A stretch of DNA of 64,000 bases, taken from Chloropicon primus. Lineage: Eukaryota. Under the pieces are notes generated by a model, which was not told the DNA's origin, did no database searches, and saw only the letters and a list, made by a program, of their open reading frames with translations. The DNA lies in assembly GCA_023205875.1 (NCBI GenBank), contig CP060756.1, forward strand, positions 868,001 to 932,000, given 5' to 3'. A program made the translations under genes and the position numbers. Numbering within the stretch: position 1 is the first letter of the stretch; each line of letters starts with the position of its first letter. Positions 19,750-23,674 of the stretch are shown piece after piece.

Positions 19750-19962
19750 CGTGAAACTAGTTTCGTTCGAGAGGCACTCTCGTGTGAGTTTTCGTGTTTC
19801 ATTTTTTTCTGAAAATAATCACATCGGCTCTTTCTCGTGAGCCTCTTATCCAGGGGGTATATAAGGCGAAGTCGACCAACAGAGGGCCTCACTTTTACGA
19901 ACACGAGCTCGTACAAACACGCACACAAAAACAACAAACTCAAACACCAAATCATCATCATA
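19750..19962 (+). promoter_or_regulatory. Promoter type A + 5'UTR variant X of cluster gene 1 (palindrome GAAACTAGTTTC, TATA box GTATATAAG)
   Basis: Near-identical copies at 21604-21400 (-) and 23543-23674 (+). Confidence 0.7.
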
Positions 19963-20565
19963 ATGGAGTCCGAGAGAAGATCCACCATGTCCAGCCTCAA
20001 GGGACAGTTGTCCAACGTCGAGGGCTCTGTCAAGAGCATGAAGGCCGCCGTCGTTGTCGGTTCCGTCTTGACCGTTGCCTGCTTGGCCGCCGTCTTCGGA
20101 GTCACCATCCTCGCCAACGAGGTCTCCAAGGAGGTTAAGGTTTCCAACGGAACCCTCACCGCCAAGAACGGACAGGCTGTCTTGACCACCAACTTGATCG
20201 CCACCACGAACATCAACAGCGTCCTCCCAAAGGCCATTGAGTTGACCCACAACAACGTCGATATTGTTGCCAAGGTCAACGCCGTCGTTTCCGAGGGTGC
20301 CAAGACTACCTTGATCTGCGACGACCTCGTCTACACCAGCGAGAACGGACAGGGCTCCACCCAGGTCACCTCTGGCTCCGTCTTGGAGTCCGTTTTGGAC
20401 AACACCGTTGAGAAGAGAAACACCCAGATTCCAGCATGGGTCGTTGTTGTGCTGATGAAGATGATCATTGGCGCTGGCTGTGACGGAATCGCCGCAAGCG
20501 AGGCTTTCCCTGATTACAGCAAGACCATCCAGACAATCATTCAGGCGTGCAGCGACCATATCTAA
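19963..20565 (+). CDS. Prepropeptide-like paralog 1 (200 aa): constant N-terminus, variable C-terminal peptide after VEKR
   Basis: MESERRST...single hydrophobic segment...; one of four paralogs. Confidence 0.85.
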   Translation: MESERRSTMSSLKGQLSNVEGSVKSMKAAVVVGSVLTVACLAAVFGVTILANEVSKEVKVSNGTLTAKNGQAVLTTNLIATTNINSVLPKAIELTHNNVDIVAKVNAVVSEGAKTTLICDDLVYTSENGQGSTQVTSGSVLESVLDNTVEKRNTQIPAWVVVVLMKMIIGAGCDGIAASEAFPDYSKTIQTIIQACSDHI

Positions 20566-20835
20566 AGGACCTGAATGAGAAACCCATATAATATACAGTT
20601 TTTTTCGATATACAATTTAGTTCTGTTGGTGACCATCTTAGCCCGCGATCAGTAAAACATATTAGTTATGTACTTTGGAAGCCTTCTTTAAAGGCGATGC
20701 ACTTGCACACATACTTCTCTTCTCATGACTGGAGATGCAATAATTGATTTGGATACTTTTGTTAAGAAATTTCTTTTGACTGTATATTATATATTTCTTC
20801 CGAGTAAAACCTTAAGGATTAGGAAAGGAAGTAAT

Positions 20836-21399
20836 TTACTGGTCCGCCAACCACTCTCTGGCCTTACCGGCAAGCCACTCGACACCCCACTGAACGACGG
20901 CCATGACGCACTTTCTCAAGCTAGGCCTCTTCCTGCACTTCTTCTTGTAGTCCTGGTTAAGGCTTCTGAGCTCCAAGCTGTCCTCAGAGTCAAGGAAAGA
21001 TCCCTCACGGACGTGGACCTCCTCACCGATGACAACGATGTCGTCGCAGATGGTGGTGACGGTGGCTCCCTGGGCGACAACAGCGTTGACGGCGAAGACT
21101 CCGTTGAAGGAGCCGAAGTCAGCGATCACGCTCTGGGCAAGACCAGAAGCCTTGTTGGAGGTGTAGGTGGTGGTGGTCAAGACAGCCTGTCCGTTCTTGG
21201 CGGTGAGGGTTCCGTTGGAAACCTTAACCTCCTTGGAGACCTCGTTGGCGAGGATGGTGACTCCGAAGACGGCGGCCAAGCAGGCAACGGTCAAGACGGA
21301 ACCGACAACGACGGCGGCCTTCATGCTCTTGACAGAGCCCTCGACGTTGGACAACTGTCCCTTGAGGCTGGACATGGTGGATCTTCTCTCGGACTCCAT
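20836..21399 (-). CDS. Prepropeptide-like paralog 2 (187 aa): cationic Trp-rich C-terminal peptide after LELR
   Basis: First 76 codons identical to paralog 1. Confidence 0.85.
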   Translation of the reverse strand: MESERRSTMSSLKGQLSNVEGSVKSMKAAVVVGSVLTVACLAAVFGVTILANEVSKEVKVSNGTLTAKNGQAVLTTTTYTSNKASGLAQSVIADFGSFNGVFAVNAVVAQGATVTTICDDIVVIGEEVHVREGSFLDSEDSLELRSLNQDYKKKCRKRPSLRKCVMAVVQWGVEWLAGKAREWLADQ

Positions 21400-21811
21400 T
21401 ATGATGATGATTTGGTGTGTGTTTGTTTTGTGTGTGTTTGTACGAGCTCGTGTTCGTAAAAGTGAGGCCCTCTGTTGGTCGACTTCGCCTTATATACCCC
21501 CTGGATAAGAGGCTCACGAGAAAGAGCCGATGTGATTATTTTCAGAAAAAAAAATGAAACACGAAAACTCCCAAGAGAGTGCCTCTCAAACGAAACTAGT
21601 TTCACGGATGATATGATAGGCCTTATCGTGTGAGTTTCATTGTTTTTTCTACTCTTCACAGCTTCCACCGGGCTCTCTCTTGTGATTTTAATTAATCCCA
21701 GTGGGGTATATAAGGCGAAGTCAACACACAGAGCGCCTCACTTTTACGAACACGAGCTCGTACAAACACACACACAAAAACAACAAACTCAAACACCAAA
21801 TCATCATCATA
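21400..21811. promoter_or_regulatory. Bidirectional promoter (A leftwards, B rightwards) between paralogs 2 and 3
   Basis: Two divergent GGGGTATATAAGGCGAAGTC TATA blocks; central palindrome 21592-21603. Confidence 0.75.
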
Positions 21812-22435
21812 ATGGAGTCCGAGAGAAGATCCACCATGTCCAGCCTCAAGGGACAGTTGTCCAACGTCGAGGGCTCTGTCAAGAGCATGAAGGCCGCCGT
21901 CGTTGTCGGTTCCGTCTTGACCGTTGCCTGCTTGGCCGCCGTCTTCGGAGTCACCATCCTCGCCAACGAGGTCTCCAAGGAGGTTAAGGTTTCCAACGGA
22001 ACCCTCACCTCCAAGAACGGACAGGCTGTCTTGACCACCAACATGTCCTACACCGCAAAGTTGTCCAAGTCCACCGCCATTGTCACCCTTGCTGATCAGG
22101 ACATGACCGGTACCTTCGCCGTCAACGCTGTTGTCACCCAGGGAACCAAGCTTACCCTCATCTGTGACGACGTCGTTGTCTCCCAGGAGGGCGGTGAGAC
22201 CGATGTCCAGGTTACTGAGGACTCGATGTTGAACAACCTGAGTGACAGTGTCGAGAAGAGAAGCGTGAACAATATGTGCAACTATTTTGGTGGTTGGAAG
22301 AGGTTTTGCGAGAAGTACACCACGAAGCTTATTCATGGTGCATATGACTACCTCTGGGACAACAGAAAGGAGATCTGGAACTACGGAAAGAGATCTAGTG
22401 CTACCATGGACATGTGCGGTGTCGCTTGCGCCTAA
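21812..22435 (+). CDS. Prepropeptide-like paralog 3 (207 aa): VEKR site and internal Y-GKR site
   Basis: Constant region differs by one codon (TCC vs GCC). Confidence 0.85.
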   Translation: MESERRSTMSSLKGQLSNVEGSVKSMKAAVVVGSVLTVACLAAVFGVTILANEVSKEVKVSNGTLTSKNGQAVLTTNMSYTAKLSKSTAIVTLADQDMTGTFAVNAVVTQGTKLTLICDDVVVSQEGGETDVQVTEDSMLNNLSDSVEKRSVNNMCNYFGGWKRFCEKYTTKLIHGAYDYLWDNRKEIWNYGKRSSATMDMCGVACA

Positions 22436-22736
22436 AGAAGATAAATTGTCTAAAACAAAATTCACCATCTCTGTTATAATATGATATTTATGCAAAAGTT
22501 GATTCTTTCGCAGACAATGTTGAAGTTTGCTTTGGTGGTGTTCAACGTTTTCTCGAGGTCGACTACGGCGCACAAGTAAGTTACTTGTAACCAGAGACTT
22601 GTTCCTGCTGTAGATTCCGTGCTTCCATCACATTGCGTTCAATTCGAAAAAGTAGTTACTTTTTGCATAAATATCATATTATATTTTAGACAATTTATCT
22701 TCTTTAGGGTGATAAATTAAATCAAACTCTGAAAAT

Positions 22737-23345
22737 TCAAGGTCGTACGCAACCGACACCGCACATGTCCATGGTAGAACTAGATCTCTTTCCGTAGTCC
22801 CAGATCTCCTGTCTGTTCTCATAGAGGTAGGCCTTCAACTTTCCAACAGCCCACCAGAATGGATGCCACTTGGGCAACTTGCTCACACTTCTGGTCTCAA
22901 CCTCCTGGATGAGGCTGTTCAAGATGGAGTCCTCAGCGATGGAGATATCGTTGGCACCGTTCTCGCTGACAACAACGAGGTCGTCGCAGATCATGGTGAC
23001 CTTGGTTCCCTCGGTGACAACAGCGTTGACGGCGAAGACTCCGCTGGTAGCACCGTCCTTAGAGTTCAAGACCACGGACTCAGTGTTGCTGTTAGCCTTA
23101 TCGGTGAAGAAGGAGTTGGTGGTCAAGACAGCCTGTCCGTTCTTGGTGGTGAGGGTTCCGTTGGAAACCTTAACCTCCTTGGAGACCTCGTTGGCGAGGA
23201 TGGTGACTCCGAAGACGGCGGCCAAGCAGGCAACGGTCAAGACGGAACCGACAACGACGGCGGCCTTCATGCTCTTGACAGAGCCCTCGACGTTGGACAA
23301 CTGTCCCTTGAGGCTGGACATGGTGGATCTTCTCTCGGACTCCAT
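22737..23345 (-). CDS. Prepropeptide-like paralog 4 (202 aa): VETR site and internal Y-GKR site
   Basis: Constant region differs by one codon (ACC); shares the last ~25 aa with paralog 3. Confidence 0.85.
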   Translation of the reverse strand: MESERRSTMSSLKGQLSNVEGSVKSMKAAVVVGSVLTVACLAAVFGVTILANEVSKEVKVSNGTLTTKNGQAVLTTNSFFTDKANSNTESVVLNSKDGATSGVFAVNAVVTEGTKVTMICDDLVVVSENGANDISIAEDSILNSLIQEVETRSVSKLPKWHPFWWAVGKLKAYLYENRQEIWDYGKRSSSTMDMCGVGCVRP

Positions 23346-23674
23346 TATGATGATGATTTGGTGTGTGTTTGTTTTGTGTGTGTTTGTACGAGCTCGTGTT
23401 CGTAAAAGTGAGGCGCTCTGTGTGTTGACTTCGCCTTATATACCCCACTGGGATTAATTAAAATCACAAGAGAGAGCCCGGTGGAAGCTGTGAAGAGTAG
23501 AAAAAACAATGAAACTCACACGATAAGGCCTATCATATCATCCGTGAAACTAGTTTCGTTTGAGAGGCACTCTCGTGTGAGTTTTCGTGTTTCATTTTTT
23601 TTTCTGAAAATAATCACATCGGCTCTTTCTCGTGAGCCTCTTATCCAGGGGGTATATAAGGCGAAGTCGACCAA
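23346..23674. promoter_or_regulatory. Inverted second copy of the bidirectional promoter (B leftwards to paralog 4; A rightwards, orphan)
   Basis: Reverse complement of ~21477-21770; homology stops abruptly after gtcgaccaa at 23674. Confidence 0.75.

What the first reader, a model, noticed from the sequence alone, without database searches (positions are those of the whole stretch)
19840..23460. All four promoter x 5'UTR combinations: footprint of promoter inversion
Seen: there are two promoter types (A: ttatccagggggTATATAAggcgaagtcgaccaacagaggg; B: aatcccagtggggTATATAAggcgaagtcaacacacagagc) and two UTR types (X: aaaaacaacaaactcaaacacc; Y: aaaacaaacacacacc). Genes 1-4 are A+X, A+Y, B+X and B+Y. 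The switch point lies in the shared block gcctcacttttacgaacACGAGCTCGTacaaacac, which contains a 10-bp palindrome. Duplication alone cannot give all four combinations, so crossover or conversion occurred here. Inference: the A/B bidirectional promoter can flip between inverted repeats, re-pairing promoters with variable tails in a phase-variation or shufflon-like way. No recombinase is visible in the window.
Basis: partly seen in the sequence, partly recalled or inferred. Interest (0 to 1): 0.8.

Follow-up and report, generated by a model that had tools for sequence, protein, structure and literature searches.

The report
Shuffled peptide-gene library in marine alga
A tiny marine green alga carries about 18 genes that share an identical front end but end in unrelated, likely secreted peptides, and recombination between the identical fronts has likely mixed their promoters and flipped a gene pair slowly over evolution, with hints that only one copy is strongly expressed.

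Summary
The four promoter x UTR combinations are real. The genes belong to an undescribed Chloropicon family (18 named copies in C. primus): an identical 77-residue leader, an acidic pro-region, a basic site and a hypervariable tail that resembles membrane-active peptides. Recombination is evident. The leaders have no synonymous differences. The same four genes occur on three chromosomes in different orders: chr13 has genes 3/4 inverted and the 10-kb segment circularly permuted. A shufflon or phase switch is not supported here: the 10-bp palindrome is absent from 8 of 8 relatives with the block, no recombinase is near, every gene has its own promoter and leader, gene order is the same in two independently assembled strains, and published RNA depth is about 0 for all four chr3 genes under either promoter. 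Best reading: slow homologous conversion and crossover between inverted leaders. One flip of the central cassette would explain the mosaic, but conversion alone would too. Open lead: RNA-type assemblies recover essentially one member (the chr13 gene-3 copy), suggesting a silent library with one active slot.

The parts
19750..19885 (+). Half cassette with promoter A (TATATAA 19858-19864) before g1
   Evidence: (D7, D9, I6, I10)
19886..19920 (+).
19921..19962 (+). UTR type X of g1 (one private G)
19963..20565 (+). g1, 200 aa: constant leader, pro-region, EKR, tail NTQIPAW...
20836..21399 (-). g2, 187 aa: constant leader, pro-region, ELR, cationic tail
21400..21468 (-). UTR Y and shared block of g2
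21469..21734 (.). Central bidirectional cassette: promoter A on minus (TATA 21490-21496), promoter B on plus (TATA 21707-21713), 12-bp palindrome GAAACTAGTTTC at its centre; the candidate inverted segment
21735..21811 (+). Shared block and UTR X of g3
21812..22435 (+). g3, 207 aa: constant leader, pro-region, EKR, tail SVNNMC...
22436..22736 (.). g3/g4 3' spacer with inverted repeats shared by the two 3' ends (I11, I16, I19)
22737..23345 (-). g4, 202 aa: constant leader, pro-region, ETR, tail whose end is shared with g3
23346..23414 (-). UTR Y and shared block of g4
23415..23674 (.). Terminal cassette, inverted copy of the central one: B on minus (TATA 23436-23442) and an orphan A on plus (TATA 23653-23659) with no family gene behind it
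   Evidence: (I1)
13773..23778 (.). 10-kb segment whose two ends are joined (23778 to 13773, 1-nt microhomology) in the chr13 copy; holds part of an aldose epimerase gene, GPDH, a minisatellite, PRMT and g1-g4
16216..18154 (.). 11/35-bp minisatellite between GPDH and PRMT, in the interval where the chr13 copy would have been opened (inferred)

Best explanation
The four genes are members of a multi-copy Chloropicon family with an identical leader and unrelated tails, and their promoter/UTR/tail mosaic likely arises by ordinary homologous recombination between the near-identical inverted leaders, at slow evolutionary rates rather than as a recombinase-driven phase switch. Shown: identical leaders, the four mosaics, a fifth mosaic at a paralogous locus, a reversed gene pair and a circularly permuted copy on chr13, and the same gene order in two strains. 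Inferred: non-crossover events (gene conversion) keep the leaders identical and move UTR and proximal-promoter patches; occasional crossovers invert a cassette or a gene pair, or move a tail behind another promoter. Whether the central cassette itself once flipped (one event explains all four combinations and its orientation) or was only patched by conversion is unresolved, about even. Inferred for the proteins: membrane-anchored precursors cut after the [EAS]-[KATS]-R site to release variable amphipathic peptides for defence or competition.
For: No synonymous differences in codons 1-62 among g1-g4, against 6-15 among 26-37 identical residues in the pro-region and 8-13 against 7 relatives from metagenomes. 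Orthogroups for g1-g4 each have chr1, chr3 and chr13 copies in both published strains; locus-tag order is g1,g2,g3,g4 on chr3, g1,g2,g4,g3 on chr13, and PRMT,g3,PRMT,g1,g2,g4,extra member on chr1 read in reverse. The chr13 g3 copy has a B distal promoter with all 4 A-type proximal letters and UTR X; the shared TATA block there is only 20 nt, so contigs phase it. That patch plus codon 67 matches g1, as a conversion tract would. Among 6 full-length metagenome loci (15 pairs), the only 2 pairs with related tails (87-89%) have unrelated promoters (45-53%; the other pairs 38-63%). Divergent and convergent pairs recur in relatives (L001; L002/L005, L006). No recombinase family among 45 window ORFs or 17 ORFs of 3 related loci. 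Of 125 leader-bearing proteins, 102 have the basic site and a tail; the pro-region is net negative in 102 of 102, the tail start net positive in 73 of 102, Trp 5.4% versus 0.01%, 46 tail clusters at 40% identity.
Against: Same gene order in two consensus assemblies does not exclude minority orientations, and a flip of the cassette alone would not change gene order. The four-way switch lies in a 35-40-nt block although about 250 nt of identical coding DNA lies next to it, and that block holds an invariant TACGA-N8-TCGTA with 5 different spacers, which looks like a recombinase core. The strong bias of RNA-type contigs to one member is not explained by neutral shuffling. Orders on chr1 and chr13 come from locus tags, not from sequence that I could read. 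Cleavage, secretion and activity of the peptides are untested.
Confidence: 0.65

Rival explanations
1. Silent library with one active slot: most copies are kept off, one position (now the terminal slot of the chr13 cluster) is transcribed, and homologous inversion or conversion across the leaders changes which peptide is made within populations, like yeast flip/flop switching or Borrelia vmp conversion.
For: In runs X3 and X4 (RNA by guess, two studies) 1 record each lay on 4.4 kb, and in X5 1 of 4 records; it runs unbroken through the leader into one tail, whereas DNA run X1 breaks there into a separate 201-nt contig. That tail matches the chr13 g3 copy at 15 of 15 residue differences, and the same protein is listed from a transcriptome source. 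Published mean RNA depth: chr3 g1-g4 0.14, 0.14, 0, 0; five chr1 copies 0-1.88; neighbours 24.5 and 50.7. A depth-2 piece in X5 with 10 differences fits the chr13 g4 copy best of 3 candidates, the partner that a flip would bring into the slot.
Against: Contigs cannot rank genes and drop rare variants; run types are guesses. The published library was normalised, the column header was not seen, reads in the shared leader may have been dropped, and the chr13 rows lie beyond the cut of the file. The same member is recovered in runs of 2015 and 2019 and chr13 order is the same in both strains, so no switch was seen. A fixed accident explains it as well: a hybrid promoter, or read-through from the truncated aldose epimerase copy next to it. 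The other copies may simply be inducible.
Confidence: 0.2
2. Site-specific, shufflon- or fimS-like inversion by a recombinase encoded elsewhere, acting at TACGA-N8-TCGTA in the shared block.
For: The four-way switch maps to this block; the 5-bp arms are invariant and the 8-nt spacer varies in 8 of 8 relatives with the block; the cassette is flanked by inverted copies of it.
Against: The block starts at the putative initiator and folds as a 5-bp hairpin at the mRNA 5' end in 6 of 7 sequences folded (z -1.4 to -2.8, weak), so promoter or UTR function explains its conservation; flanking columns are as conserved as the arms and there is no compensatory change. 6 of 14 related loci were not found to carry it (one is cut before the start). 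A chr13 copy switches elsewhere. No recombinase nearby; none named in the supplements searched except Dmc1/RecA types (partial coverage).
Confidence: 0.09
3. Assembly chimera: the mosaic was made by mis-joining repeats.
For: About 19-fold depth of the leader contig in X1 shows a repeat that short reads cannot phase; no laid piece spans the locus.
Against: Two strains were assembled independently with long reads (passages) and give the same order and identical g1-g3 proteins; each repeat is under 1 kb. Promoter-UTR links themselves were not checked against reads.
Confidence: 0.04

Closest known systems
Inverted paralogous gene pairs kept alike in Caenorhabditis (PMC1803023, abstract seen)
   Same: Long near-perfect inverted repeats made of divergent and convergent homologous gene pairs, with the structure better conserved than the sequence.
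   Different: Here only promoter and leader are homogenised while tails diverge beyond recognition, and copies on several chromosomes take part.
Flip/flop mating-type inversion in Ogataea polymorpha (PMC5720833, passages seen)
   Same: Inversion between identical inverted repeats by RAD51-dependent recombination with no site-specific enzyme found; position decides expression.
   Different: There a 2-kb repeat, two states, induced and shown within clones; here 0.3-0.6-kb repeats, about 18 genes, and no switching shown.
Borrelia hermsii vmp antigenic variation (PMC6011951, abstract seen)
   Same: Many variable genes, shared upstream homology, apparently one expressed.
   Different: There one active promoter; here each gene examined has a TATA promoter and full leader, and single expression is only hinted.
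R64 shufflon (Rci/sfx) and fimS-type invertible promoters (features recalled; PMC11850598 abstract says multiplexed inversion systems have not been found in eukaryotes)
   Same: Constant N-terminus with exchangeable C-termini; a promoter segment between inverted repeats.
   Different: No adjacent recombinase, long repeats instead of short sites, every tail has its own constant part and promoter.
Circle-mediated duplication of yeast region B (PMC3053389, abstract seen)
   Same: Copies of a 10-17-kb segment at other loci in altered organisation, with little or no homology at the junction.
   Different: One permuted copy is well supported here (chr13), the segment is native, and no replication origin or free circle was tested.
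Prepro-peptide antimicrobial and toxin precursors (cathelicidins, frog-skin peptides, conotoxins; recalled)
   Same: Conserved leader, acidic pro-piece, basic cleavage site, hypervariable cationic or amphipathic tail.
   Different: No sequence or fold match found; the leader has a 25-residue N-terminal stretch before a predicted membrane helix, and the pro-region is a predicted five-stranded sheet.

Membership tests
Shufflon (Rci/sfx type) | Dedicated site-specific recombinase next to the segments | tested here: not met
   No recombinase Pfam hit in 45 window ORFs or 17 ORFs of L005, L008, L014; genome-wide not testable.
Shufflon (Rci/sfx type) | One constant 5' part and several promoterless 3' segments | tested here: not met
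   All four genes have promoter, UTR and full leader.
Shufflon (Rci/sfx type) | Short conserved site at one fixed crossover point | tested here: inconclusive
Invertible-promoter phase variation (fimS type) | Promoter segment flanked by inverted repeats | tested here: met
   21469-21734 lies between inverted copies of block, UTR and leader (I4, I8).
Invertible-promoter phase variation (fimS type) | Orientation changes expression (ON/OFF) | tested here: inconclusive
   Both ends carry the same TATA block; published depth 0-0.14 under both A and B, normalised library.
Invertible-promoter phase variation (fimS type) | Both orientations coexist in a clone | not testable with these tools
   Only contigs were available; shared stretches exceed 31 nt.
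Flip/flop switching by homologous recombination (Ogataea type) | Long near-identical inverted repeats around alternative genes, both orientations known | tested here: met
   g3/g4 pair lies between the 324-nt inverted cassettes plus leaders; order differs between chr3 and chr13 copies. These are different loci, not two states of one locus.
Flip/flop switching by homologous recombination (Ogataea type) | Position-dependent silencing and inducible switching | tested here: inconclusive
   One member recovered from RNA-type contigs; no switch seen between strains.
vmp-type antigenic variation | A single active promoter with silent archive genes | tested here: inconclusive
   Nine chr1/chr3 copies at depth 0-1.88, but those read here carry promoter sequences; chr13 values not visible.
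Circle-mediated duplication | Permuted gene order with an end-to-start junction lacking homology | tested here: met
   Junction 23778 to 13773, 1-nt microhomology; chr13 order PRMT,g1,g2,g4,g3,epimerase,GPDH; published SNP coordinates fit.
Circle-mediated duplication | Free circular DNA | not testable with these tools
   No raw or long reads.
Prepro antimicrobial or toxin precursors | Conserved leader, acidic pro-region, basic site, variable amphipathic tail | tested here: met
   102 of 125 with site and tail; pro-region negative in 102 of 102.
Prepro antimicrobial or toxin precursors | Homology to a known precursor family or fold | tested here: inconclusive
   No Pfam hit, no PDB sequence hit, no clear fold match on a model of mean pLDDT 67.
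Prepro antimicrobial or toxin precursors | Processing, secretion and killing activity | not testable with these tools
   Needs peptidomics and assays.

The most novel reading that the evidence does not exclude
A free-living eukaryotic alga keeps a library of about 18 mostly silent peptide-precursor genes and expresses one from an active slot; recombination across the identical leaders, by inversion or conversion, swaps which hypervariable membrane-active peptide the cell makes. This would be antigenic-variation-like switching of a defence peptide in marine picophytoplankton.
Probability: 0.18. Interest if true: 0.87.

Novelty: new variant of a known kind. Interest (0 to 1): 0.56.

Why it matters
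Chloropicon is an abundant open-ocean picoalga whose defences are almost unknown. An undescribed family with at least 46 tail types behind one homogenised leader offers a directly testable source of algal bioactive peptides and a compact natural case of concerted evolution with promoter and tail shuffling. If one-at-a-time expression with switching holds, it would extend cassette switching from pathogens and yeast mating types to phytoplankton. As a recombinase-driven shufflon, the claim is weak.

Tried and rejected
No whole genome is held, so chr1 and chr13 could not be read and no genome-wide recombinase search was possible. No RNA holder is listed on record; run types are guesses. Lack of contig cover on g1, g2 and g4 in X3, X4, X6 is not used as evidence of silence, and I laid no separate silent control stretch. 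Contigs cannot phase promoter to UTR to tail across shared stretches over 31 nt, so cassette orientation in runs X1/X2 stayed open. Viral contigs: 22 pattern matches, none a relative, so a viral shufflon origin was dropped. Longer fused relatives: none among 7997 candidates, weak evidence. Atlas: no usable hit. Profile search of 1.84 billion representatives: 72 hits, unnamed. Fold searches: no Foldseek match at E 0.001, best Z 5.3 on the long helix; the sheet domain was not searched alone. The published PacBio variant table lists indels only by its description; 9 of 9 chr13 rows are away from the cluster, 10 of 17 chr3 rows seen: uninformative on inversions. Splicing as the cause of the 23778/13773 joint: rejected, since the joint runs backwards over 10 kb and published chr13 gene order and coordinates fit a genomic junction. 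Retroposition: considered because similarity often starts at the putative start site, but no poly(A) or 3' boundary was seen. Earlier scan notes: nothing. Not found in print: searches; 'inversion' occurs 0 times in both genome papers; parts of their supplements were cut or unread.
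Full report
Observation. The layout is [A>] g1> <g2 [<A B>] g3> <g4 [<B A>] with no gene after the last A. The full cassette occurs twice as a 324-nt inverted repeat. A and B are diverged halves of one old palindrome. X goes with the plus-strand genes and Y with the minus-strand genes, so a tandem array A-X, B-Y, A-X, B-Y with one flip of the middle cassette gives the present state. A single conversion event on a three-type history gives it too. 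The sequence alone cannot choose between them.

What the genes are. The window is from a compact, intron-poor eukaryote, and the proteins match hypothetical proteins of Chloropicon primus and C. roscoffensis plus many marine metagenome proteins (255 hits, best 120 listed). Named C. primus copies number 18 in one published strain: chr1 5, chr3 4, chr13 4, chr14 4, chr16 1. The leader contig in DNA run X1 has depth 3145 against 161.8 for the unique flank, consistent with that, though the tool warns depth is no copy number. Each protein has a 77-residue leader with a hydrophobic stretch near residues 26-47, a predicted five-stranded sheet (residues 90-134, pLDDT 76-91), an acidic spacer, a basic site and a tail. 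Of 125 leader-bearing proteins, 102 matched the site pattern with a tail of 20 or more residues and 23 did not (fragments and variant sites). Tails are Trp-rich, mostly cationic at the start, more amphipathic than the pro-region, and form 46 clusters at 40% identity. That is the layout of prepro antimicrobial or toxin precursors (recalled), but no family, sequence or fold match was found. The peptide function is inference.

Evidence for recombination. Codons 1-62 have no synonymous difference among g1-g4 while pro-regions and tails are far diverged, and relatives differ by 8-13 synonymous codons: concerted evolution of the leader. File S1 of PMC12301720 (part 2 of 24 read, plus searches) lists g1, g2, g3 and g4 orthogroups with chr1, chr3 and chr13 copies in both strains. 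By locus tag, chr3 reads PRMT,g1,g2,g3,g4; chr13 reads PRMT,g1,g2,g4,g3,aldose epimerase,GPDH; chr1 reversed reads PRMT,g3,PRMT,g1,g2,g4,another member. So a gene pair has been inverted and tails have moved between slots. The chr13 copy is also circularly permuted: contigs in X3, X4, X5 and X6 continue from window 23778 into window 13773-13801 (29 of 29 letters), and published chr13 SNP coordinates place GPDH where that junction predicts. In metagenome relatives (14 loci from 70 pattern matches), head-to-head pairs around a near-palindromic promoter (L001) and convergent pairs (L002/L005, L006) recur, and the two pairs with related tails have unrelated promoters.

Evidence on switching. Gene order at all three loci is the same in two strains isolated in 1965 (Atlantic) and 1992 (Pacific), 99.91% ANI, assembled separately with long reads (PMC12301720 sections 6 and 18 part 1; PMC6731263 passages). 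This argues against rapid flipping of gene pairs and against a chimera, but says nothing on the cassette alone or on minority forms. What is conserved is TACGA-N8-TCGTA with 5 spacers (only those 8 of 14 loci were given to the script). This resembles a recombinase core, but it sits just after the putative initiator, folds as a weak 5' hairpin, and shows no compensatory change. No recombinase is near.

Expression. Supplementary Data 2 of PMC6731263 gives, in the column I take to be mean RNA-seq depth (paper text; header not seen; normalised pooled library), 0.14, 0.14, 0 and 0 for chr3 g1-g4, 0-1.88 for five chr1 copies, and 24.5 and 50.7 for neighbours. A flip of the cassette at this locus would therefore change little under those conditions. 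In X3 and X4 (RNA by guess, two studies) and X5, one contig bridges the leader into a single tail that matches the chr13 g3 copy at 15 of 15 residues; X6 gives two shorter pieces of the same form. The contig also crosses the promoter cassette into the epimerase fragment, which may be read-through RNA or DNA. This hints at one dominant member, but contigs cannot rank genes and the chr13 rows of the published table were cut.

Verdict. The footprint is real and part of a wider, undescribed system: a leader-homogenised, tail-hypervariable precursor family that is reshuffled, most likely by homologous conversion and occasional crossover (0.65). A regulated one-slot switch is open (0.2); a recombinase-driven shufflon (0.09) or a chimera (0.04) is unlikely. 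It works like inverted paralog pairs kept alike in Caenorhabditis (PMC1803023, abstract) and, if switching is shown, like Ogataea flip/flop (PMC5720833, passages) or Borrelia vmp (PMC6011951, abstract). It fails two defining shufflon features. The chr13 copy resembles circle-mediated duplication in yeast (PMC3053389, abstract). I found no description of the family in searches or in the passages of the two genome papers that I searched.

Noticed in passing
window 13773-23778: The ends of this 10-kb segment are joined in another genomic copy (chr13 by locus tags), giving a circularly permuted duplicate with a truncated aldose epimerase and second copies of GPDH and PRMT.
   Followed up: partly
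window 16216-18154: 1.9-kb minisatellite of 11/13/35-bp units with 40% GC and strong A skew, next to the cluster; a possible integration site or silencing element.
   Followed up: no
chr14 locus tags: Four family genes (a,b,a,b) are listed for one published strain but only the last pair for the other: a possible recent tandem duplication or an assembly collapse.
   Followed up: no
window 21325-21381 (X5 record 19; also X1): A 632-nt contig of depth 753 carries only 57 nt of the constant leader inside unrelated sequence: a captured fragment or possible antisense regulator elsewhere in the genome.
   Followed up: no
window 20586, 20792, 22475-22497, 22684; L002-L007: A TATAATAT-like motif lies 30-70 nt after the stop codon in all four genes and in relatives, probably a 3'-end signal; a further copy sits at 23829-23837 on the minus strand.
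   Followed up: partly
chr13 g1 copy (P0036 versus P0129): The chr13 g1 copy is shortened with a different tail in one strain (165 aa) and full length in the other (192 aa): a strain-specific frameshift or a sequencing error.
   Followed up: no
window 42209-44079: A peptidase C69 gene appears in two consecutive ORFs (intron or frameshift).
   Followed up: no
L001:1-245: Two family genes head-to-head around a 215-nt near-palindromic promoter that lacks the TACGA-N8-TCGTA block.
   Followed up: partly
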